Of a stretch of DNA of 64,000 nt, positions 8,704 to 43,534 are shown piece after piece. Source of the DNA: Terriglobales bacterium (GTDB lineage: Bacteria; Acidobacteriota; Terriglobia; Terriglobales; Acidobacteriaceae); the NCBI GenBank assembly GCA_038205325.1, contig JBBRCA010000001.1, positions 4,603 to 68,602 of the forward strand, given 5' to 3'. A program made the position numbers and the translations under genes. Under the pieces are notes generated by a model. The model saw only the letters and a program-made list of their open reading frames with translations, ran no database searches and was not told the DNA's origin. Each line of letters begins with the position of its first letter. Positions within the stretch are counted from its first letter, which is position 1.

Positions 8704-10221
8704 CTACCGCAGCCCCACCTTCATCATCCCAAAACTCCCCAACCAACCCGACAACCCACCCACCAACTCCGAACCAACCCGCACACCCGCCTCCTGCACT
8801 TTTCCCGTCCCCTGCGCGCCGTCGATCGCATCGCGCAGCTTCCGCGCCAGCGTCACATCAAACCCCTCGCCGATAAACACCTTGTCCCCCGCCAGCGTCA
8901 ACAGCACATCGCCCTCGTTGGTCGAGTACACCCGCTCGGCGCCGTCCACTTCATCCTTTGTGCGCCGCTTCAGGCCCGAATATTTTCGCGGCAACTGCCC
9001 CTCGTAGACCGTAAAGAACCCTTGCGCCGATTCCACATTCTTCCATCGCGAGCTGTACATCAACGCCAGCGACGCCGTCGAGTCCTTGTCCACTGCTGTC
9101 TTCTTTTGCGCCGCATAGTAAATCCCGCCATTCCACTCCGGTGCCAGCGCTTCCGCCATCGGTTTGCCGCCAAACAACTCCGTTGTAATTCGCACGTCCA
9201 ACTCGCCCATCACGCCGATATCGTAAGGCGCAAACCCCGCTGCATCCAGCAACGGATGAATGTCCGGCATCCGCATCACGGGGACCGCCGCGTGGGCCAG
9301 GTAGGCCGCAGGATGCAGCACCTCGAAGCTGGAACTCGGCGGCCTATCCAACGTCCCCGCGAACGCGCGTTGCGTGCCCGCGCGTATCAGGATCGTTTCT
9401 TCAAATCCCAGTCCCTCGACATACGGAAACACCAGCGCCTGTTGCAGCAGAAGCGGTGCCCGCGCCATCACCGGAGACCCTGTCATATCGCCTGCGCCCG
9501 CCTCGATCCGCGCCGCCATATCCGGCACGTCCTTCATCGTCTTGCCCGAATCCTTGAGCGCATAGTCGCCGAACGTGAGCATTGCCTGGCCTTCAAGCAC
9601 CGCCTGTCGTGCTGTGTCCGTCTCGTCTACCGCGATGTGGCGATTGTCTCCCACCACGTCTTTCGCTACGCCCTTCACTTCCTGGTCGGTCCACTTTTCC
9701 AGACCCAGTCGCTGGTCCTGCAATGCGTGCGTCAGCTCATGCGCCATCACCGGCAACTGCTGGTCCTCAGGCACCCAATTCAGCAGCGTCATCAATTGCG
9801 TCTTAGGCTCGTAATAGCCCGCAATCTGCTCGGTTAACAAACTCAACAAGAACGGCCGCAGATGGAAGCCACGGTCCAGCAGCCCAAACTTCTTCAGCAC
9901 CAACTCGCTGCGCTCCATGCGCTTGGCGCCCTCGTCCTCATCGAACTTTTTGCGCAACTCCGCAGCCACCGCCTCGCGCGAAATGAACACTCCCTTGACC
10001 GGCCGCTTCACCGCGAGCCTGGTATCTGCGCTGACAAACTTCAGGGTCGCGTCGATATCGTTGAGCAGCACCTTCTGCTGGTTTTTGGTGAGGAGGATTT
10101 CGGGTTTGGCAGCGGCCTCCTGCGCCACCGCGACCCCGCTCAATCCCACCGCTACCACGGCCGCCCGCAACCCCATTCCCCACAACCGCTCGCTCAACCC
10201 AATCCTCCAACGCTCAATCAA
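8704..10221 (-). CDS. Exported hypothetical protein with zincin-like HExxH motif
   Basis: N-terminal signal-like segment, IAGYYEP, VMAHELTHALQDQ, AVLEGQAM. True start may be ATG 10176. Confidence 0.7.
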   Translation of the reverse strand: MIERWRIGLSERLWGMGLRAAVVAVGLSGVAVAQEAAAKPEILLTKNQQKVLLNDIDATLKFVSADTRLAVKRPVKGVFISREAVAAELRKKFDEDEGAKRMERSELVLKKFGLLDRGFHLRPFLLSLLTEQIAGYYEPKTQLMTLLNWVPEDQQLPVMAHELTHALQDQRLGLEKWTDQEVKGVAKDVVGDNRHIAVDETDTARQAVLEGQAMLTFGDYALKDSGKTMKDVPDMAARIEAGAGDMTGSPVMARAPLLLQQALVFPYVEGLGFEETILIRAGTQRAFAGTLDRPPSSSFEVLHPAAYLAHAAVPVMRMPDIHPLLDAAGFAPYDIGVMGELDVRITTELFGGKPMAEALAPEWNGGIYYAAQKKTAVDKDSTASLALMYSSRWKNVESAQGFFTVYEGQLPRKYSGLKRRTKDEVDGAERVYSTNEGDVLLTLAGDKVFIGEGFDVTLARKLRDAIDGAQGTGKVQEAGVRVGSELVGGLSGWLGSFGMMKVGLR

Positions 10222-10287
10222 ACTTCAACTTCCAGTGTACGCAGTAACACAATCGCGAGTCTTCTTTGCCGGATTAGAATCAAAGCA

Positions 10288-11097
10288 ATGGAAGTTTTCG
10301 ATGACGACCTCACGAAGTTCGCGGCCGAAGGCGCTACACCCTTGCCAATCCCGGACATCGAGGGGTATGTCGATCACAAGGGCGCGAAAATTTATTACTC
10401 CACGTATGGGTCCGGTCGGCCCATAATCCTGTTGCACGGCGGTCTGGGCCATCGCGGAAATTGGGGCAGCCAGGTCCCGGCCCTACTCGCCAGTGGATAC
10501 CGCGCCATACTTATAGACAGTCGCGGTCATGGTCGCAGCACCCGTGATGAGCGCCCGTATACCTACGAACTTATGGCTTCCGATGTCCTCGCCGTTATGG
10601 ATTCTCTTCAACTCGATCAAGCCGTTCTCGTCGGCTGGAGCGATGGCGCATGCACGGCGCTGATCCTTGCCGCCGAGGCCCCCACGCGGGTCGCAGGTGT
10701 CTTCTTTTTTGCCTGCAACATGGATCCCAGCGGCGTAAAACCATTCCAAACCACGCCAGCCTTGGACCGCTGTTTCAGCCGTCACGCGAAAGATTATGAC
10801 GACCTATCGACCATGCCCGGTCGCTTTGAAGACTTTGTAAAAGCAGTCAGTCTTATGCAGCAAACACAGCCGAACTGGACGGCGGACGACTTGGCCAACA
10901 TCGCCGTTCCCGTCACCATCGTCCAAAGCGAGCGCGACGAATTCATCCTCCCCGAACACGCCGCCTATCTTGCGGGAACCATTCCGAACGCGGAACTCGT
11001 CATCCTGAAGGGTGTCAGCCACTTCGCTCCTTTGCAAAGGCCATTGCAATTCAACACTGCCGTGCTTGCCTTCGCAAACAAAGTTTTTCCCGCATAA
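10288..11097 (+). CDS. Alpha/beta hydrolase
   Basis: LLHGGLG, IDSRGHGRS, nucleophile elbow GWSDG, C-terminal GVSHF. Start at ATG 10288; the upstream part of the 411-aa ORF is antisense shadow. Confidence 0.92.
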   Translation: MEVFDDDLTKFAAEGATPLPIPDIEGYVDHKGAKIYYSTYGSGRPIILLHGGLGHRGNWGSQVPALLASGYRAILIDSRGHGRSTRDERPYTYELMASDVLAVMDSLQLDQAVLVGWSDGACTALILAAEAPTRVAGVFFFACNMDPSGVKPFQTTPALDRCFSRHAKDYDDLSTMPGRFEDFVKAVSLMQQTQPNWTADDLANIAVPVTIVQSERDEFILPEHAAYLAGTIPNAELVILKGVSHFAPLQRPLQFNTAVLAFANKVFPA

Positions 11098-11111
11098 AGG
11101 ACACCACAGCC

Positions 11112-12080
11112 GTGCCCACCACCCCTCAATCCGAACTTACCGCCATCCTCACCGGCGCAGCTATCGTCCCGCTCGACGACCGCGCCTTCCTCCGCATCGC
11201 CGGAAGCGACGCGACCCGCTGGCTCAACGGCATGGTCACCAACTCTGTTCAGTCTCTTACTCCGGGTGAAGGCAACTACAACTTCCTGCTCAACGCCCAG
11301 GGCCGCATCCAGGGAGACGGCAACATCTACCGCGACACCGCCACCGAAGAGTTCCTGCTCGAAACCGACCGCACGCAAGTCGCCGCCCTCCAGCAACACC
11401 TTGATCGTTTCATCATCATGGACGACGTTGAATTACTCCCCATCATGGACGACCAGCGCGCTCTCCTGCTCGCCGGCCCGCGCGCCGCCGACCGCCTCAC
11501 AGCGCTCGCGCTTCCAACGCCCGCCGCGCTCCACATCGCGCGGGCTATGTACGACGGCCAGCCCATCCTCATTCTCGCTCCCCCCGCGCCGCTGGTTCCG
11601 CGCTATGAGGTGTGGGCAGAGCCTGAAACCATCGCCACGCTCCGCACAGCCCTCCAAGCCACGCACGTCTCCTCCGAAGCGCTCGAAAATCTGCGCCTCC
11701 TCGAAGGCCGTCCCCGCTTCGGCCAGGACATCCGCGACCGCCATCTTGCCCAGGAAACCAATCAGACTCACGCCTTGCATTTCTCGAAAGGCTGTTACCT
11801 CGGCCAGGAAATCGTCGAGCGCATCCGCTCGCGCGGCCAGGTCCACCGCACCTTCAGCGGCTTCCGCCTCTCCGCCCTGCCCGTCTCGCTCCCCACGCCG
11901 CTCACGCTCGATGGCAAACCTGCGGGCGAACTCACCAGCGCGTCCATCCTCCCGCTCCCTGAGGGTGAAATGCCGTTCGCGCTGGGCTACATTCACCGTG
12001 AAGCTATTGAACGCAACGCCCCCCTCGCCTTCGACGGCGGCGCAGCGACCCCCATGACGCTCCCATTCCACCCATCCTGA
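11112..12080 (+). CDS. ygfZ: YgfZ/GcvT-family folate-binding protein
   Basis: Signature KGCYLGQEIVER, DATRWLNGMVTN, LNAQGRI. Confidence 0.92.
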   Translation: MPTTPQSELTAILTGAAIVPLDDRAFLRIAGSDATRWLNGMVTNSVQSLTPGEGNYNFLLNAQGRIQGDGNIYRDTATEEFLLETDRTQVAALQQHLDRFIIMDDVELLPIMDDQRALLLAGPRAADRLTALALPTPAALHIARAMYDGQPILILAPPAPLVPRYEVWAEPETIATLRTALQATHVSSEALENLRLLEGRPRFGQDIRDRHLAQETNQTHALHFSKGCYLGQEIVERIRSRGQVHRTFSGFRLSALPVSLPTPLTLDGKPAGELTSASILPLPEGEMPFALGYIHREAIERNAPLAFDGGAATPMTLPFHPS

Positions 12081-33382: not shown

Positions 33383-33432
33383 TGACAGCTTCTCTCTAAC
33401 CCTCTACCTGCTACGCTCTACACTCTGCCATC

Positions 33433-34830
33433 ATGAACCACGTTCTGATCGTCGACGACGAAGCCGACATCCGCGACTCGCTGGAGGGTATCCTGCGCGA
33501 AGAGGACTACGCCGTCACCACCACTGGGAGCGCCACCGAAGCCCTCGCCCTGCTGCGCGATGCGCCCTATGAGGCGGTGCTGCTCGACATCTGGCTGCCC
33601 GACGGCGACGGCCTCGACGTGCTCGCCAAAATCAAAGGTGAAAACCCTGCTCAGCCTCTCGCCGATTCGCCCGAGGTCATCATGATCTCCGGCCACGGGA
33701 CCATCGAAGCAGCGGTGCGCGCGACCAAACTCGGCGCGTACGACTTCCTCGAAAAGCCGCTCTCGCTCGACCGCACGCTGCTGGTTCTGCGCAATGCTAT
33801 CAAGGCCCACCAACTCCGCGAAGACAATCAGGAGTTCGCACGCCAACTCGCCGGCAAAGGCCCCGTCACCGGCCAGTCGGTGCCGATGAAAGCGCTTCGC
33901 CAGCAAATCAAATTGATGGCGCCCACCAACGGTCGCGTGCTCATCTACGGGGAGTCGGGCACGGGCAAGGAACTCATCGCGCGCGCGATGCACGCCGAAT
34001 CGCTGCGCCGCGAGCGGGTTTTCGTCGAGCTCAACTGCGCCGCCATCCCCGAAGACTTTATCGAAACCGAACTCTTCGGCTACCGCCATGGCGCAGGCGG
34101 CCCTGGCCAGCCCGCCGAAAAACGCGGAACATTTGAGCGCGCCGACGGCGGCACATTGTTCCTCGATGAGGTTGGCGACATGAGCCTGAAAACCCAGGCG
34201 AAGGTGCTGCGGGCGTTGGACGAGCAGCGCTTCTACCCGGTTGGCGCCTCCACGCCGGTCCACATTGACGCGCGCGTCATCGCCGCCACCAACAAAGACC
34301 TCGAAGAAGAAATCGCGCGCGGCAACTTCCGCGAAGACCTCTTCTACCGCCTCAACGTCATTCCGTTTTTCGTTCCTCCACTGCGCGAGCGCAAGGAAGA
34401 TATTCCTCTGCTGGTGAAGGAGTTCCTGCACGATCTCGGCACGCAATACGGCCGCCCGCGCGTCGAAATCTCCGACGCCGCGCTCACGCAACTGAAGTCC
34501 TATCATTGGCCTGGCAACGTTCGCGAGCTGCGCAACGTCATCGAGCGCGTCCTGATCCTCAATCCGAAAGCGACGCGCCTCGAACCTAAACACCTGCCCA
34601 TGCTGGTGCAGCGCACGGATGGTGTTGCCGGAACCGCCGCCGGGCGCGGCGCGAACCGCGAAGAGTTTACGACGCTGCTGCAAGCCCGCGAAGCCTACGA
34701 GCGCGACTACATCCTCAAGGAAATCGATCGCTCGCACGGCAACGTGACCCGCGCCGCAGAAGCGCTCGGCCTCGAACGCTCGCACCTCTATCGCAAGATG
34801 AAAGCGCTCGGCATCAGCGTCGGGGAGTGA
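33433..34830 (+). CDS. NtrX-like sigma-54 AAA+ response regulator
   Basis: Receiver domain (LLDIWLPD), GESGTGKE, LFLDEVGD, GNFREDLFYRLN, WPGNVREL, Fis-type HTH. The GAFTGA loop is degenerate (YRHGAGG), as in NtrX. Confidence 0.92.
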   Translation: MNHVLIVDDEADIRDSLEGILREEDYAVTTTGSATEALALLRDAPYEAVLLDIWLPDGDGLDVLAKIKGENPAQPLADSPEVIMISGHGTIEAAVRATKLGAYDFLEKPLSLDRTLLVLRNAIKAHQLREDNQEFARQLAGKGPVTGQSVPMKALRQQIKLMAPTNGRVLIYGESGTGKELIARAMHAESLRRERVFVELNCAAIPEDFIETELFGYRHGAGGPGQPAEKRGTFERADGGTLFLDEVGDMSLKTQAKVLRALDEQRFYPVGASTPVHIDARVIAATNKDLEEEIARGNFREDLFYRLNVIPFFVPPLRERKEDIPLLVKEFLHDLGTQYGRPRVEISDAALTQLKSYHWPGNVRELRNVIERVLILNPKATRLEPKHLPMLVQRTDGVAGTAAGRGANREEFTTLLQAREAYERDYILKEIDRSHGNVTRAAEALGLERSHLYRKMKALGISVGE

Positions 34831-35058
34831 CATCTGCTGCGGGCAAAGTTGGCCTAGAAGCGCGCGGTAAGTCCACCGCTCACCGTTAGGCCGTGCTGGG
34901 AGTGGCCGGTCACCGGAACGAAAAATATCGGCTCTCTCAGCGCATAGAAATCCCGAAATTCACCCCGCAATCCGATGGGTACGAACAGGTGAAGCGGGGT
35001 CTTTACATCCACGCCGCCGCCAAATTGTAAAACGCCAGTGTGCGTATGAATTGTCGGA

Positions 35059-36064
35059 GATGATTATCCAGTTAGCTCAGGCGTAGCGATAAGTTGTTTG
35101 TAGGTAATGGTTTGTGTGCCTAGGGTGGCCCTGATGAGCCTTTCCAGCAGGTCCGGTTCCATGGTTCTGCGATTGAGCCTGTAGTTGAATTCCGCGACGT
35201 AGCCTTCGAGGTGTTTGGCTTCGACCGCATGGTGGGTTCCGAGTAGGAAGCGTTTGAGGTTGGCCAGCGCGATGTGGACCCAGGGAAACAGTTTGTGAGC
35301 CGGTTCCGGCTGGCCAGAAATCGGGATGGCCGTGTGCTCGAAACCATGTTCCTGGACCTGCCAGTAGCCGCTCCAGCCGTCGGTCAGCACCTGGCTTCCG
35401 GGTCGCACCTTGTCGCTCAAGAAACCGTTCAGGCTCTTGCCGGCGGCGTCGGGCAGAACGCGCAGCGCGGCAAAGCCCGGCACCGGCGGCCTTCCCGGCT
35501 GGCCCTGGGCGCGGTGCTCGACGGCGACCGCGACCACGGCCTTGTCCTGGCCGCCGCGTCCACGCCTGCCGCCCTCTTCGACCCCGCCCACATAGCCTTC
35601 GTCGACTTCGACCACGCCGCCCAGGGTATAGCCGCGGTCGCGGTCAGCCATCGCCTTGCGGATCTTGTGCTGCATCATCCACGCGGTCTGATAGCAGACG
35701 CCGATCTCCTTGCTCAACTGCACCGCCGAGATGCCCTTCTTGCCGTGACTCATGCGGTAGATGGCCCAGAACCAGCTCGACAAGGGCGTGCGCGTCTTGT
35801 GAAAGACGGTTCCCGCCGTCACCGAGCACTGATAGCCGCAGCGCGCGCATTCATGCACCCGACGCGACGCGATGTAGCCCCGGCTCACGCCATCGCAACC
35901 TGGACACCGGAACCCGTCCGGCCAGCGCTGCCGCGACAACTGTGCACCGCACTGAGACTCCTCGCCAAACCGCAACCGAAACTCCCGCACCGTCAGCATT
36001 CCACTCTTCTTCATGCCCAATAGAATATCGCCTTTTCATCGCCTGAGCAAGATGGATAATCATC
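35059..36064 (-). mobile_element. IS1595-family (ISXO2-like) insertion sequence, 1006 bp
   Basis: Terminal IRs GATGATTATCCAGTTAGCTCAGGCG (35059-35083) and the reverse complement of 36040-36064 match at 22/25. Flanked by the 8-bp duplication TTGTCGGA (35051-35058, 36065-36072). Confidence 0.95.
35064..36014 (-). CDS. IS1595-family transposase
   Basis: N-terminal Zn ribbon (RWPDGFRCPGC...ECARC), TAGTVFHKT, DDE motifs VEVDEGYVG, TDGWSGY, YVAEFNYRLN. Confidence 0.95.
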   Translation of the reverse strand: MKKSGMLTVREFRLRFGEESQCGAQLSRQRWPDGFRCPGCDGVSRGYIASRRVHECARCGYQCSVTAGTVFHKTRTPLSSWFWAIYRMSHGKKGISAVQLSKEIGVCYQTAWMMQHKIRKAMADRDRGYTLGGVVEVDEGYVGGVEEGGRRGRGGQDKAVVAVAVEHRAQGQPGRPPVPGFAALRVLPDAAGKSLNGFLSDKVRPGSQVLTDGWSGYWQVQEHGFEHTAIPISGQPEPAHKLFPWVHIALANLKRFLLGTHHAVEAKHLEGYVAEFNYRLNRRTMEPDLLERLIRATLGTQTITYKQLIATPELTG

Positions 36065-36776
36065 TTGTCGGATTGCTCGCGCCCCCGAACAAGCGGTCGC
36101 TGGTCTCAAACAAGCCGTACCCTCCGCCCGCCGAAATCCAGGGTGTCAAGGCGTGGCCGAGAGGAAACGCCAGACGCGCGGATGGAGTGACGTAGAACGT
36201 CGCGTTGCTGGTGGGCAGGAGCGCATTTCCGTTCGTGAGTCGATGGTTCGGCCCGACCAGCGCGGGCACGTCCAGCCACAATTCGCTATGACGAAAGGAA
36301 TGAACTTCCCGGCCATAGTTGAGTTCGAGCGACATGCTGCTGCTGTTCACAATCTCCTTCGTTCCGTTCCCCGAAGCGACCGCCAGCGCATTGGAGGGTA
36401 GGAACTCGCCACCAATTGTGAAGCCGAGCAGATTTTTCCCGTCCTGCGCTCCGGCGACAAATGGAACCATGCTCGAGAGAACAAGACACGAAATTGGAAT
36501 CCGACGGACGAGAGCAAAACGACGGTAAAGAGCACTCATGTGTCTTGGATTCCTCCGTGTCACAAAGGTGAGGGAGAATTCCGGAACGTGTCCGCCACCC
36601 AGTGCGTGGCCCCCGCACTCTTTATGCAACAGTCCGGCGGAGGGTCTCTTGATGTCGACCGCTTTAATCCACACATGTTCATAGATTTGCAGTTGCATGC
36701 ACAGGTGGAGCGCGCCTAAGGTACTTTTTAGCTGATGTCGCGCAGTAAGTCAGCAATCGAACCGATGGCAGACTTG

Positions 36777-37049: not shown

Positions 37050-37500
37050 TTATTTCCAGGTGAGCGGCACGTCGTACAGAGGAAAATTGGCATCGCCGAC
37101 AAGATCTGCGAGTCGAGAGGGAATTTCACTTTTCCCGGGAAGATGGAACCATTCAACGTGAGTTGCTCGATCTCCTTATCCATCGCAGCCACTACCTCGT
37201 CGGTCGGGACAGGGAGAAGTCCCTCGCCCGCTCAAGCTGATCTTTTCGGCTGACGCGATCCACCCGATCCGCGGCGAGGATGCCCTTGCCAATCTTCTTC
37301 GCTAGAGCGGGGCACAGTCGAAACCACGAGCTGAGAGTGGGGCCGTCGGCCAGCGCGACCATGACCTCTTCGCCACGGGCCGCGGCGGACGCTAGTCCGG
37401 CGAATTGGGTCTCGGCGTATTGGACGCCGACTTTCGTAAGCTTATCGCAGGCGGACTGAATCGGTGTAGAGAGAATTGTGATGAGAGTGTGTTCGGACCG
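37050..37500 (-). pseudogene. Degraded, frameshifted gene remnant (unknown family)
   Basis: Protein-like segments in different frames (LTKVGVQYAETQFAGLASAAARGEEVMVALADG...; GEGLLPVPTDEVVAAMDKEIEQL...DVPLTWK*). No start codon identified. Confidence 0.4.
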
Positions 37501-37512
37501 GCTGCTGGTGGC

Positions 37513-39018
37513 TTATTCTGCGGCACCTAAAAGCCAGCCCGTCGTTAACCCCTTGCTCTTCAACCAGTCCTTAACGGCACTCTTTTTGTCCGATAGTATT
37601 CGGTCGATTTCATGACCGGTGGGTGCCGACCACAACTGCCAGTCAGCCAAGCGCGCAACTATCTTCTTGATATGTTGTAGATCCTTATCACTTAAATCGC
37701 GGAGGAACACGCGTGATCGATCATCGGCGTCAGCGAGCTCCAATCTCGCGCACACCGCACCGTGCAAAAGTTCAAACCAAGCCATCATCGATTTCGAGCC
37801 AAAAATTCTCTCCAATTTTCGTTGCGTGTCCGTCTTGACCGATGTGTCGCTGCTCCAGTTATGAAGTGCTAAGTCCACTATGAAATTACTGAGAGAGATC
37901 ACGTTCGCGAGTTCGCTGTCTCGCTTGTAACTCCCGCCTGTCAGGCTGTCCCCGAGTGGTTCTTGAAAAATAAAGTTTGCAAACAACGACTTCTTAAGAA
38001 CGTCGAGGGTGAGCGGAGTCGCTGCTGAACTGCGATTTCCAGTAGAAATAAACTTCGCCATTCCGTTCTCGGAACTTTGAAGTACCCCATTAAAAAGATA
38101 ACTGCGGAATCGTTCATTAACTTCCCCACGCGTAAGCTGCTTGACACCGCGAAGGTACTGAATGAAACCTTCTTCGGATTTTGGCTTTCCGTCCTCTTGA
38201 TTTCGATATGACTCAAAATCACTGCCGAATTCGTCCCCTAGCTTCCTAACCATGATTGACGCAAAAAACCGTGTTTGAGAATATTTGTCGTGAGCTGAGA
38301 TGTTCGTGTCGTTCAGTAACCTCAAATCGGGGTTCAAATACACCTTGCACTCAAAGCTTCTCCTACCGTTCCATAGCAACGCGGCAACTTTATGTTGTCC
38401 ATCGAAAATTACGATTTGGTTGCCGCGAACTCGCCCGATCGACGGTTGCAATACGGGATGATTTTGAAAGTGCCTGAAAAGCTCAAACATCTTTTCTTCG
38501 ATGAGAAACCTAGGCTGGAGCCCCATGCCAGCGTCGTCCGTGTCGTCACTGTCCAAGAGCGAGATCGGTAGAGTTGCGTAAAAATACTCCCATCCGGTCG
38601 TTGGGCATTTGTAAAGCTCGTATGTAATATCGCTTCCGCTTGAACTGAGATGAATTTTTTGTGCTTTAGCGGCAGTCGAGCAGTTCTGCCCGAAAATCAA
38701 CTTATCGTTCTTGGCGAAGTAAAGCAAGAGATCGTGGAGAGTAACATCGCGCGAAGCTGCGAAGAATTCTTGCATCTTCAGTCGTACACGGAAATCTTCT
38801 AGTGGAAGCGCGCCCTTCGCCTTGTTGTGCATTTCACACATCGGCGCAATGTTGTCTAGGACACTCGCGCCACCCATTGCGAAGGCCCGGATATGGTCGA
38901 AGTGAAGTGGAGAATCTTCAGAGATCGAATGGCTTGTCGCGAAACAGTTTCTTCCGTGTCTCGATAAAATCTGCTGCTTTTCTGATTCATCTAGCTGGCG
39001 CTTTAGCGTTATTGCCAT
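37513..39018 (-). CDS. HNH endonuclease fused to ParB/DndB-like DGQHK domain; putative defence protein
   Basis: N-terminal CFATSH...HFDHIRAFAMGG...DNIAPMCEMHNKAKG; central LQPR...IFDGQHKVAAL. AGGAGA RBS. Visibly AT-richer than rpoC. Confidence 0.82.
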   Translation of the reverse strand: MAITLKRQLDESEKQQILSRHGRNCFATSHSISEDSPLHFDHIRAFAMGGASVLDNIAPMCEMHNKAKGALPLEDFRVRLKMQEFFAASRDVTLHDLLLYFAKNDKLIFGQNCSTAAKAQKIHLSSSGSDITYELYKCPTTGWEYFYATLPISLLDSDDTDDAGMGLQPRFLIEEKMFELFRHFQNHPVLQPSIGRVRGNQIVIFDGQHKVAALLWNGRRSFECKVYLNPDLRLLNDTNISAHDKYSQTRFFASIMVRKLGDEFGSDFESYRNQEDGKPKSEEGFIQYLRGVKQLTRGEVNERFRSYLFNGVLQSSENGMAKFISTGNRSSAATPLTLDVLKKSLFANFIFQEPLGDSLTGGSYKRDSELANVISLSNFIVDLALHNWSSDTSVKTDTQRKLERIFGSKSMMAWFELLHGAVCARLELADADDRSRVFLRDLSDKDLQHIKKIVARLADWQLWSAPTGHEIDRILSDKKSAVKDWLKSKGLTTGWLLGAAE

Positions 39019-39051
39019 AAGTTTCTCCTAATTTGACCAATACCAAATAAT

Positions 39052-39077
39052 ACCGGCAGAGCCTGAGCTCTGCCGGT
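39052..39077 (-). terminator. rpoC terminator hairpin
   Basis: Perfect 11-bp stem ACCGGCAGAGC/GCTCTGCCGGT followed on the minus strand by ATTATTT, 41 nt after the rpoC stop. Confidence 0.75.
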
Positions 39078-39118
39078 TCGTTGTTTACGCGGAGCGCTTC
39101 TCGCCGTCCGCGAAGTAA

Positions 39119-43309
<4,191 letters not shown>

Positions 43310-43534
43310 AGTTTTCTCTCTCCGTGTGCAGTGCTTAGCTCGATGCCAACTTTGCGTTTCGCCCTCGTATTTGCTGAGGACTTGTGTTGCGAGCTTCGCT
43401 GCTGTTACTGCTGCTTTACTTTCGCGAGCAGCGCGTTTCTTTGCGCCACTCACTCAATCTTTAGGCCTTCGCTTTCCGCCCGTCTGCTCTTGCCGTTACA
43501 CAAGCTCAGAGCGGACAGACGGAACGCGGTATAG

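What the first reader, a model, noticed from the sequence alone, without database searches (positions are those of the whole stretch)
37513..39018. Orphan HNH + ParB/DndB-like (DGQHK) fusion downstream of rpoC: candidate undescribed single-gene defence nuclease
Seen: a 501-aa ORF with its own RBS, placed after the rpoC terminator and visibly AT-richer than its neighbours. It has an N-terminal HNH motif (C...HFDH...GG...N...C..HN..K), a central LQPR...IFDGQHK segment and a long helical C-terminus. Known: QR/DGQHR-type motifs mark the ParB/Srx-like nucleotide-binding fold of DndB, and the related DGQQR motif marks the DUF262 domain of GmrSD and SspE. In GmrSD/SspE that domain is N-terminal and the HNH (DUF1524) is C-terminal. 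Inference: the order here is reversed and the catalytic-site Arg is Lys, so this may be a distinct nucleotide- or modification-sensing nuclease. No methyltransferase or dnd/ssp genes are nearby.
Basis: partly seen in the sequence, partly recalled or inferred. Interest (0 to 1): 0.72.

Follow-up and report, generated by a model that had tools for sequence, protein, structure and literature searches.

The report
Unnamed HNH–ParB-like single-gene defence nuclease
This horizontally acquired gene downstream of rpoC encodes a member of a widespread but unnamed protein family, joining a DNA-cutting HNH domain to a ParB-like nucleotide-binding domain and a helical domain with no known fold, that often sits inside restriction-modification operons and is most likely an anti-phage nuclease, though nobody has tested it.

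Summary
ORF 37513-39018 (-) encodes 501 aa, has an AGGAGA ribosome-binding site, follows the rpoC terminator, and is about 12 GC points poorer than its flanks.

The domain reading holds:
- Residues ~8-88 are a zinc-type HNH domain with an intact catalytic set (D41-H42, N56, N65).
- Residues ~161-246 model as the ParB/sulfiredoxin fold, with QPR and FDGQHK motifs. This is a GxxK variant of the GxxR phosphate motif.
- Residues 247-501 form a confidently modelled helical domain with no match in PDB or BFVD.

No named family matches the full length (Pfam, NCBIfam, PADLOC, PHROGs, PDB). The family is large: 786 or more 90% clusters, and 486 of 185,579 species genomes across many phyla. It has a fixed architecture and no conserved partner gene.

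Its commonest neighbours are Type I R-M genes. Of 80 loci, 21 have R-M-like genes within 10 kb, often as hsdR-X-hsdM-hsdS on one strand. This is the niche already known for GmrSD-like Type IV enzymes. Other copies lie beside integrases, conjugation genes or housekeeping genes.

Best reading: a stand-alone HNH defence nuclease gated by the nucleotide-binding domain. It works like GmrSD, SspE or DndI but is not a member of that family. Function is untested.

The parts
37513..39018 (-). Complete gene X, 501 aa plus the stop codon at 37513-37515. Single-gene HNH / ParB-Srx-like / novel helical domain protein.
   Evidence: GC 0.46-0.50 against about 0.60 in the flanks
38755..38997 (-). HNH (His-Me finger) nuclease domain, residues ~8-88. 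Putative Zn ligands C25/H30 and C61/H64. Catalytic D41-H42 (38893-38898), N56 and N65.
   Evidence: Pfam HNH in 48 of 52 family members. Profile against PDB sequences: group II intron maturase HNH 1.9e-13, Cas9 HNH, Gme HNH. Foldseek hits 4h9d and Cas9 HNH. Residue conservation.
38539..38754 (-). Linker helix and a beta-rich subdomain, residues ~89-160, leading into the ParB-like core. Contains the conserved YFYATLP...DSDD segment (D158 in 51 of 52 members).
   Evidence: AF2 secondary structure; conservation
38281..38538 (-). ParB/sulfiredoxin-fold core, residues ~161-246. Carries the QPR motif (168-170), R196, and the FDGQHK P-motif variant (205-210; DGQHK codons at 38389-38403).
   Evidence: Foldseek against PDB: PadC, Noc, ParB-CDP and sulfiredoxin, probability ~1.0, TM (target-normalised) 0.5-0.69. 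Pfam DUF6551 in 8 of 52 members, best E 8e-5. Weak PHROG ParB-like hit. Conservation.
37516..38280 (-). C-terminal all-helical domain, residues 247-501, with no fold match found. Family-invariant E282, R366, E369 and W463.
   Evidence: AF2 pLDDT 91 and pTM 0.88. Best Foldseek E is about 1 in PDB and 0.27 in BFVD. No Pfam hit.
39024..39029 (-). Ribosome-binding site AGGAGA, 5 nt upstream of the ATG.
   Evidence: read directly
39052..39077 (-). rpoC intrinsic terminator hairpin (11-bp stem, T-rich tail), 33 nt upstream of the X start codon.
35064..36020 (-). IS1595-family transposase 1.5 kb downstream of X. It marks this as a variable, mobile region. It is context, not part of the protein's function.
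   Evidence: Pfam DDE_Tnp_IS1595 1.4e-29 and Zn_ribbon_IS1595. A second assembly's contig breaks here.

Best explanation
Gene X is a horizontally acquired, self-contained defence nuclease.

Shown:
- It combines an intact zinc-type HNH DNA endonuclease domain, a ParB/sulfiredoxin-fold domain with a conserved phosphate-binding-type motif (GxxK), and a conserved helical C-terminal domain whose fold has no match in the libraries searched.
- The three-domain architecture is fixed across a family that is spread patchily over many bacterial phyla and at least one archaeon.
- It has no conserved partner gene.
- It repeatedly sits inside Type I R-M operons (hsdR-X-hsdM-hsdS), beside integrases, or on conjugative elements.

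Inferred mechanism:
- The ParB-like domain binds, and perhaps hydrolyses, a nucleoside triphosphate. This works as a conformational switch that licenses or restrains the HNH domain, as the DUF262 domain does in GmrSD/BrxU, SspE and DndI.
- The C-terminal domain supplies target recognition, dimerisation, or both.
- There is no cognate methyltransferase. The protein is unusually well conserved for a defence gene (about 55% identity across phyla). It shares operons with m6A-type Type I systems.
- On those grounds I commit to a Type IV-like mode. The enzyme recognises a chemically invariant feature of foreign DNA, most likely a non-host base modification other than the partner system's m6A, and nicks or cleaves it. 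That would complement the R-M system, which handles unmodified DNA.
- In the window the gene stands alone after the rpoC terminator with no recognisable promoter of its own, so it is probably expressed at a low level by read-through.
For: - Domains: HNH, ParB/Srx fold, confident C-terminal domain without a match.
- Functional residues under purifying selection in 52 members at 20-35% identity: H42 50/52, N56 52/52, N65 46/52, R170 51/52, D206 50/52, G207 51/52, H209 52/52, K210 49/52, and E282, R366, E369, W463 all 52/52.
- Fixed architecture, with no HNH-less full-length variants.
- Patchy distribution across phyla: 486 of 185,579 species genomes.
- Low GC. The closest relative (79% identity) sits in a different locus, beside an integrase and a DUF4011 helicase-nuclease.
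- Neighbours: HsdR (ResIII + EcoEI_R_C) and HsdM (N6_Mtase) are the commonest flanking families. 21 of 80 loci have R-M-like genes within 10 kb. The order hsdR-X-hsdM-hsdS on one strand, with gaps of roughly 3-60 nt, is seen in L034, L050 and L058, and in L010 with a kinase gene between X and hsdM.
- No conserved small partner ORF.
- Precedent: GmrSD-family enzymes (RloF, TgvAB, BrxU/HEC-05, HEC-06) occupy the same embedded niche and use a ParB-like NTPase to control a His-Me nuclease (PMC11411939; bioRxiv 10.1101/2024.01.29.577857; PMC11662687).
Against: - There is no experimental datum for any family member.
- The P-motif Arg, which is needed for NTP binding in tested ParB-fold proteins (PMC12704722), is Lys here, so nucleotide binding is unproven.
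- Most loci (59 of 80) show no R-M gene within 10 kb, and many lie among housekeeping genes.
- I did not compute the background rate of R-M proximity. The enrichment is judged against general knowledge, roughly 1% expected.
- The iterated local HMMs may include some non-Type-I helicases or methylases.
- PADLOC 2.0, including its embedded-gene candidates, does not contain the family. No copy was found in 50,697 phage or 72,556 plasmid records.
- Modification dependence is pure inference.
Confidence: 0.6

Rival explanations
1. Abortive-infection or 'retaliation' nuclease. X is held inactive in healthy cells. It is unleashed, degrading host and phage DNA alike, when infection is sensed. The signal could be a change in the NTP pool read by the ParB-like domain, or, in embedded copies, a phage anti-restriction protein disabling the neighbouring Type I R-M complex (the PrrC/RloC logic).
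For: X lies between hsdR and hsdM in one operon, the niche of PrrC and RloC (established knowledge; bioRxiv 10.1101/2024.01.29.577857 lists them). A nucleotide-binding domain is fused to a non-specific-looking nuclease. Split or frameshifted copies in L075, L084 and L086 fit a costly, potentially toxic gene.
Against: Most copies are solitary, so they cannot depend on an R-M partner. The whole protein, including its presumed sensor domain, is conserved at about 55% identity across phyla. That is unusual for sensors of fast-evolving phage proteins. There is no antitoxin-like partner.
Confidence: 0.2
2. Selfish mobile HNH endonuclease. X promotes its own spread, in the manner of a homing endonuclease or an element-maintenance nuclease, rather than defending the host.
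For: The HNH domain is closest in sequence to those of group II intron maturases, Cas9/IscB and phage HNH endonucleases. X occurs as single-gene insertions at unrelated sites, with foreign GC content and an IS nearby.
Against: X is never inside an intron, an intein or a conserved target gene, and the insertion sites are unrelated. No flanking repeats or partner ORFs were seen. About 420 further residues, with invariant motifs outside the HNH domain, are conserved. X is absent from the phage and plasmid collections. Operonic placement inside R-M systems is unexplained by homing.
Confidence: 0.07
3. Accessory subunit or regulator of R-M or DNA-modification systems. This would be a DndB-like role: an NTP-dependent DNA-binding regulator or nickase that tunes a modification pathway, not an independent effector.
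For: The motif is DGQHK, and DGQHR in 2 of 52 members. DndB is a ParB-superfamily ATP/GTP-binding regulator (PMC12704722, PMC10853773). X is co-operonic with hsdM/hsdS in a minority of loci.
Against: X does not match DndB or DGQHR profiles. No dnd or ssp genes appear among the recurrent neighbours, and there is no R-M gene in the window. An intact, conserved HNH catalytic set argues for an effector role. Most copies are solitary.
Confidence: 0.08

Closest known systems
GmrSD-family Type IV restriction enzymes and relatives (GmrSD, BrxU/HEC-05, HEC-06, SspE, DndI, TgvAB, RloF)
   Same: A ParB/Srx-superfamily nucleotide-binding domain with QR and DGQxx motifs is combined with a His-Me (HNH-type) nuclease and a large helical region in one polypeptide of about 500-650 aa. 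They are single-gene modules, often embedded between hsdR and hsdM/S of Type I R-M operons or in BREX/Hma loci, and are more often found alone than embedded (PMC11411939; PMC4619093; PMC11662687).
   Different: The domain order is reversed: the HNH is N-terminal. The nuclease is a classical Zn-finger HNH (PF01844 type), not DUF1524. The ParB-like domain does not match DUF262 (PF03235). It has DGQHK rather than DGQQR, and its best structural matches are PadC, Noc, ParB and Srx. The C-terminal 255 residues have no detectable structural relative, although solved structures of BrxU (7P9K) and DndI (9JFL) have been deposited. This looks like an independent assembly of the same functional logic.
DndB / DGQHR-domain proteins (PF14072, TIGR03187)
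   Same: ParB-superfamily domain with an upstream QR-type motif and a D-G-Q-H-[R/K] pentapeptide. DndB-like proteins bind ATP/GTP (PMC12704722).
   Different: No profile match at E<=0.1 (Pfam) or E<=1 (NCBIfam). A central-domain profile search retrieved only this family. Lys replaces Arg in 49 of 52 members. DndB lacks an HNH domain and sits in dnd operons, and no dnd genes recur here.
Uncharacterised bacterial 'ParB-CTPase fold + HNH (PF01844)' fusions noted in the 2025 PNAS survey (PMC12704722), and DUF6551 (PF20188) ParB-fold proteins
   Same: The ParB fold is fused to a PF01844-type HNH. Residues ~177-228 give a weak DUF6551 match, significant in some members (best E 8e-5). The survey reports that DUF6551 fusion proteins bind NTPs.
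   Different: The survey gives no function, architecture detail or context for its HNH fusions. Its detection relied on Pfam ParB models that this family does not hit, so identity with this family is unverified. This family has GxxK rather than the GxxR shown there to be needed for binding.
Canonical ParB / Noc / PadC CTP-dependent DNA clamps
   Same: They are the best structural matches for the central domain. They offer a possible NTP-dependent dimerisation or clamping mechanism.
   Different: X has no HTH DNA-binding domain, no ParA partner, no GERRxR box, and no role in segregation is suggested by its context.

Membership tests
HNH / His-Me finger endonucleases (PF01844) | Beta-beta-alpha-metal motif with catalytic His, structural Asn, metal-binding Asn/His, and often a Cys/His zinc site | tested here: met
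   Pfam HNH in 48 of 52 members, best 1.3e-11. The window protein alone scores 18.6 bits, below the 21.4 cutoff. Profile against PDB HNH domains down to 1.9e-13. D41 47/52, H42 50/52, N56 52/52, N65 46/52. Cys/His interchange at positions 61 and 64 preserves the zinc ligands.
ParB/sulfiredoxin fold superfamily | The ParB/Srx alpha-beta fold | tested here: met
   Foldseek on an AF2 model (pLDDT 85): PadC, Noc, MxParB and Srx at probability ~1.0, target-normalised TM 0.42-0.69, E 5e-3 to 7e-2. The E-values are modest because the domain is about 20% of the query.
ParB/sulfiredoxin fold superfamily | P-motif GxxR whose Arg is required for NTP binding | tested here: inconclusive
   The motif is G207-Q-H-K210. 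Position 210 is K in 49 of 52 members, R in 2 and E in 1. Whether Lys supports binding cannot be decided from sequence.
ParB/sulfiredoxin fold superfamily | Nucleotide binding or hydrolysis | not testable with these tools
   Needs DRaCALA, ITC or NTPase assays.
GmrSD family (DUF262 + DUF1524) | N-terminal DUF262 (PF03235) with a DGQQR motif | tested here: not met
   No PF03235 hit at E<=0.1 in 52 members. The motif is DGQHK. The domain is central, not N-terminal.
GmrSD family (DUF262 + DUF1524) | C-terminal DUF1524 His-Me nuclease | tested here: not met
   The nuclease is N-terminal and of PF01844/HNH_4/HNH_5 type. The C-terminus is a helical domain with no nuclease match.
GmrSD family (DUF262 + DUF1524) | Modification-dependent cleavage controlled by NTP hydrolysis | not testable with these tools
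   Biochemical property.
DndB / DGQHR domain (PF14072, TIGR03187) | Match to the family profile | tested here: not met
   Absent from the Pfam and NCBIfam results at E<=1 for the window protein and at E<=0.1 for 52 members. The central-domain profile search found no DndB-annotated protein.
DndB / DGQHR domain (PF14072, TIGR03187) | Location in dnd (phosphorothioation) operons | tested here: not met
   No dnd or ssp families among the 25 commonest Pfam or PADLOC families in 137 flanking genes. None in the window neighbours examined.
Known anti-phage systems (PADLOC-DB 2.0, including PDC embedded-gene candidates) | Match to any system model | tested here: not met
   0 families at E<=1.
Homing endonucleases | Residence in an intron or intein, or at a conserved target site | tested here: not met
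   Free-standing gene in unrelated intergenic contexts.
Defence-island / R-M-embedded gene class (operational) | Recurrent placement inside or next to defence systems in unrelated taxa | tested here: met
   HsdR and HsdM are the top flanking families. 21 of 80 loci have R-M-like genes within 10 kb, and 13 of the 42 loci with at least 5 kb on both flanks. Embedded examples come from Verrucomicrobiota, Chloroflexota, Acidobacteriota and cyanobacteria-related MAGs. The background rate was not computed here.

The most novel reading that the evidence does not exclude
X founds a previously unrecognised class of restriction enzyme that arose independently of GmrSD. A classical zinc-finger HNH is governed by a ParB-fold switch that uses Lys instead of the canonical Arg. 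The switch may act as an NTP-dependent clamp that loads on and scans DNA. The structurally novel C-terminal domain would be a new reader of a DNA modification or of another invariant mark of foreign DNA.
Probability: 0.25. Interest if true: 0.78.

Novelty: new variant of a known kind. Interest (0 to 1): 0.58.

Why it matters
If the function is confirmed, four things follow.

- **A new defence gene.** It would add a widespread single-gene system to the prokaryotic immune repertoire: about 0.26% of species-level genomes, mostly uncultured soil, sediment and freshwater phyla that current catalogues cover poorly. PADLOC, Pfam and NCBI annotation currently miss it or label it only 'HNH endonuclease' or 'hypothetical'.
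- **Convergent design.** It would show that pairing a ParB-fold nucleotide switch with a His-Me nuclease was invented at least twice from different parts. That strengthens the idea that this pairing is a general solution for controlling a dangerous nuclease.
- **A natural test of the P-motif.** It offers a GxxK variant of the ParB P-motif in which to test what the conserved Arg really does.
- **A possible new DNA reader.** The C-terminal fold might recognise a DNA modification. Modification-dependent nucleases of this type have become tools for epigenome mapping.

Tried and rejected
- **Full-length match to a named family.** Pfam, NCBIfam, PADLOC, PHROGs and PDB sequences returned only HNH-domain hits.
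- **HEPN in the C-terminus, as proposed for DndB (PMC3632139).** No HEPN Pfam hit. No HEPN or any other fold match for a high-confidence C-terminal model in PDB or BFVD. The invariant R366-x2-E369-x2-N372 is not the Rx4-6H motif. Rejected as unsupported.
- **Link to DndB, DUF262 or ParBc by sequence.** A central-domain profile search returned only short fragments of the same family. The search appears to have collected few candidates (340), so this negative is weak.
- **Effector swapping.** I looked for family members with another nuclease in place of the HNH. All full-length divergent members keep the HNH. The apparently HNH-less hits start mid-protein and are contig-edge fragments.
- **A conserved small partner (antitoxin or immunity) ORF within 700 bp.** None found.
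- **Phage or plasmid carriage.** No tblastn hit in either collection. These collections are biased towards cultured hosts, so this is weak evidence.
- **Conserved position next to rpoC.** Rejected. The 79%-identical relative sits beside an integrase.
- **Expression evidence.** Only one DNA sediment metagenome holds the sequence, and no RNA runs do.
- My first translation reference (37513-39015) dropped the start codon, so alignment positions printed by the tools for A1 and A3 are one lower than the true numbering. All positions in this report were re-derived from M1.
Full report
**Observation.** The ORF at 37513..39018 on the minus strand is real and intact: ATG start, 501 codons, TAA stop. 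An AGGAGA ribosome-binding site lies 5 nt before the ATG, read. rpoC (39119..43453, identified by its Pfam Rpb1 domains) ends 100 nt upstream. An intrinsic terminator with an 11-bp stem and a T-rich tail (39077->39052) lies between the two genes. GC content falls to 0.46-0.50 across the ORF, against 0.57-0.66 on both sides. I checked the DGQHK codons (38389-38403) and the D-H codons (38893-38898) directly against the DNA.

One warning on numbering. My first translation reference omitted the start codon, so positions printed by the alignment tools for A1 and A3 are one lower than the true ones. Everything below is numbered from M1 and was recomputed.

**What the protein is made of.** The window protein alone gives only a sub-threshold Pfam HNH hit, a weak DUF6551 hit, a weak NCBIfam IscB-HNH hit, and nothing in PADLOC. 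With family information the picture sharpens.

- **HNH domain.** A profile of 52 divergent members matches solved HNH domains: group II intron maturase at 1.9e-13, then Cas9, Gme HNH, McrA and endonuclease VII. Pfam HNH hits 48 of the 52 members. The catalytic set is conserved: D41 47/52, H42 50/52, N56 52/52, N65 46/52. Positions 61 and 64 interchange Cys and His between subfamilies, as expected for zinc ligands.
- **ParB/Srx-like domain.** An AlphaFold2 model of the whole protein (mean pLDDT 85) places the central segment in the ParB/sulfiredoxin fold. Foldseek returns PadC, Noc, Myxococcus and Caulobacter ParB-CDP/CTP structures, and plant and human sulfiredoxin, at probability ~1.0 and target-normalised TM up to 0.69. 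It also returns the Gme and Cas9 HNH domains for the N-terminus. The motifs Q168-P-R170, R196 and F205-D-G-Q-H-K210 are nearly invariant. DUF6551 is matched by 8 of 52 members, best E 8e-5. A 2025 survey reports fusions of the ParB-CTPase fold to DUF6551 that bind NTPs (PMC12704722).
- **C-terminal domain.** Residues 247-501, modelled separately, give a very confident all-helical domain (pLDDT 91, pTM 0.88). It has no significant structural neighbour in PDB (best E about 1) or in BFVD (best E 0.27), and no Pfam match. It carries four family-invariant residues: E282, R366, E369 and W463.

**The family.**

- **Size.** The protein has 786 or more homologous 90%-identity clusters. The 120 best listed nearly all run to about 500 aa and cover the whole query. 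An exhaustive HMMER search of 1.84 billion representatives finds 742 proteins at E<=1e-3. Full-length members go down to about 20% identity.
- **Architecture.** Every full-length divergent member I examined keeps the N-terminal HNH. The apparently HNH-less hits begin mid-protein and are contig-edge fragments. One member adds a 165-aa N-terminal extension.
- **Distribution.** In one-genome-per-species GTDB data, 486 species carry it. They include Acidobacteriota, Verrucomicrobiota, Planctomycetota, Chloroflexota, Bacteroidota, Spirochaetota, Proteobacteria, Ignavibacteriota, Omnitrophota and a Thermoplasmata archaeon. Identity across these phyla is about 50-58%.
- **Conclusion.** Such a patchy spread, together with the foreign GC content here, indicates horizontal transfer and rules out a core housekeeping role.
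- **Naming.** No source names the protein beyond 'hypothetical' or 'HNH endonuclease'.

**Context.** In the window X is solitary. Downstream lie an unknown 212-aa ORF, an IS1595 transposase (35064-36020), a sigma-54 response regulator and a histidine kinase. Upstream is rpoC. Local HMMs for HsdR, HsdM and HsdS find nothing in the 64 kb. The closest relative (79% identity) is not near rpoC. It sits beside an integrase, an AAA_14/DUF4143 ATPase and a DUF4011-helicase-MTES_1575 protein.

Across 80 genome loci there is no conserved partner gene, large or small. The commonest flanking Pfam families are ResIII, EcoEI_R_C, SWI2_SNF2, N6_Mtase and HsdM_N. The commonest PADLOC families are Type I REase and MTase. 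Iterated local HMMs place R-M-like genes within 10 kb in 21 of 80 loci, and in 13 of the 42 loci with at least 5 kb on both sides. Repeatedly the arrangement is a same-strand hsdR-X-hsdM-hsdS operon with short intergenic gaps. In L034, for example, hsdR ends at 9979, X spans 10001-11506, and hsdM starts at 11509. Other copies lie next to TrwC/TraG conjugation genes or among housekeeping genes.

I did not compute a background rate. From general knowledge of R-M density, about one Type I system per genome, roughly 1% would be expected. The enrichment is therefore large but not formally tested.

**Comparison with what is known.** GmrSD-family enzymes (GmrSD, BrxU, SspE, DndI, TgvAB, RloF) share the same logic. 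A ParB-superfamily NTPase domain (DUF262, with QR and DGQQR motifs) controls a His-Me nuclease (DUF1524) through a helical linker. They also share the same genomic habit: embedded between the genes of Type I R-M, BREX or Hma systems, yet far more often found alone (PMC4619093, PMC11411939, PMC11662687, bioRxiv 10.1101/2024.01.29.577857).

X works like these enzymes on paper, but it fails every membership test I could run:
- it does not match DUF262 or DUF1524;
- its order is HNH first;
- its nuclease is a classical zinc-finger HNH;
- its motif is DGQHK;
- its ParB-like domain resembles PadC, Noc, ParB and Srx most closely in structure;
- its C-terminal half matches nothing, although solved structures of BrxU and DndI have been deposited.

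It likewise fails the DndB/DGQHR profile tests and is not in dnd operons. The 2025 ParB-fold survey mentions uncharacterised bacterial ParB-HNH fusions and shows that the GxxR arginine is needed for NTP binding (PMC12704722). X has GxxK in 49 of 52 members, so nucleotide binding is plausible but unproven. My literature searches found no paper describing this architecture.

**Mechanism.** The anatomy, conservation, distribution and context above are shown. The rest is inferred. I propose that an NTP-dependent conformational switch in the ParB-like domain licenses the HNH nuclease, with the C-terminal domain providing target recognition or dimerisation.

I favour a Type IV-like, modification-dependent mode for three reasons:
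- there is no cognate methylase;
- the whole protein, including the presumed sensor, is unusually conserved across phyla, which suggests a chemically invariant ligand;
- co-operonic Type I systems would be complemented by an enzyme aimed at hypermodified DNA, as shown for TgvAB and BrxU.

The rivals are as follows.
- **Abortive-infection or retaliation nuclease (0.2).** This remains possible, especially for embedded copies.
- **Selfish homing-type nuclease (0.07).** The context argues against it.
- **DndB-like regulatory accessory (0.08).** The intact effector domain and the solitary copies argue against it.

**Verdict.** 'DndB-like' holds only at the level of motif and fold. The gene is solitary, but it is not an orphan, because the family is large. 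X is a new variant of a known kind: an independently assembled, permuted analogue of GmrSD-type enzymes, with a C-terminal domain that matches no structure in the libraries searched. It is a good candidate for experimental testing but is unproven, so I score interest at 0.58.

Noticed in passing
window 35064-36020 (-): Intact IS1595/ISXO2-family transposase (DDE_Tnp_IS1595 plus zinc ribbon), 1.5 kb downstream of X. A second public assembly of the same organism (GCA_038229395.1) has a 3.5-kb contig that ends exactly where this IS begins. That suggests the IS is multi-copy in the genome.
   Followed up: partly
window 36060-36698 (-) and 37192-37362 (-): Two ORFs between X and the IS, of 212 aa and 56 aa, have no Pfam match. 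Both are called as genes in the NCBI assembly (L092). Their GC is host-like (0.55-0.60), so the inserted DNA may be little more than X itself.
   Followed up: partly
window 39019-39051: Only 33 nt separate the rpoC terminator from the X start codon, and the sigma-70 scan finds no promoter on the minus strand. X may depend on terminator read-through from the rpoBC operon, which would give a potentially toxic nuclease low constitutive expression.
   Followed up: no
L002/L010 9534-10979 (+), also L003; related ORF in L065: In a Limisphaerales MAG the operon reads hsdR-X-(Ser/Thr protein kinase with zinc ribbon and TPR repeats)-hsdM-hsdS. A kinase is therefore a second embedded gene next to X. The kinase cluster recurs in 5 loci.
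   Followed up: no
L075 544-2069, L084 10059-11491, L086 9959-11487: In three genomes the family gene is split into two overlapping or adjacent ORFs, an apparent frameshift or pseudogene. Many database hits are short fragments. Some may be decayed copies rather than contig-edge truncations.
   Followed up: no
P0175 residues 1-165: One divergent family member carries an extra N-terminal region of about 165 aa before the HNH domain, with no Pfam match.
   Followed up: no
L088 1255-5346 and 6441-7619: The closest relative of X (79% identity) sits in an island with a 1363-aa DUF4011 / AAA_11 / AAA_12 / MTES_1575 helicase-nuclease-like protein, an AAA_14/DUF4143 ATPase and a phage-type integrase. 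The composition looks like a defence island.
   Followed up: no
window 39054-39281: In the only sequencing run that holds this sequence (a sediment metagenome), a 6-kb contig at about 20x depth matches the rpoC 3' end at about 90% identity. It stops at the terminator hairpin. The window organism itself is at about 5x depth. A more abundant relative is therefore present, and whether it carries X could not be seen.
   Followed up: partly
window 33418-34833 (-) vs 33433-34830 (+): Two near-coextensive long ORFs lie on opposite strands. Only the plus-strand one is a real gene (a sigma-54-dependent response regulator). The 471-aa minus-strand ORF has no Pfam hit and is probably a high-GC antisense artefact.
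   Followed up: yes
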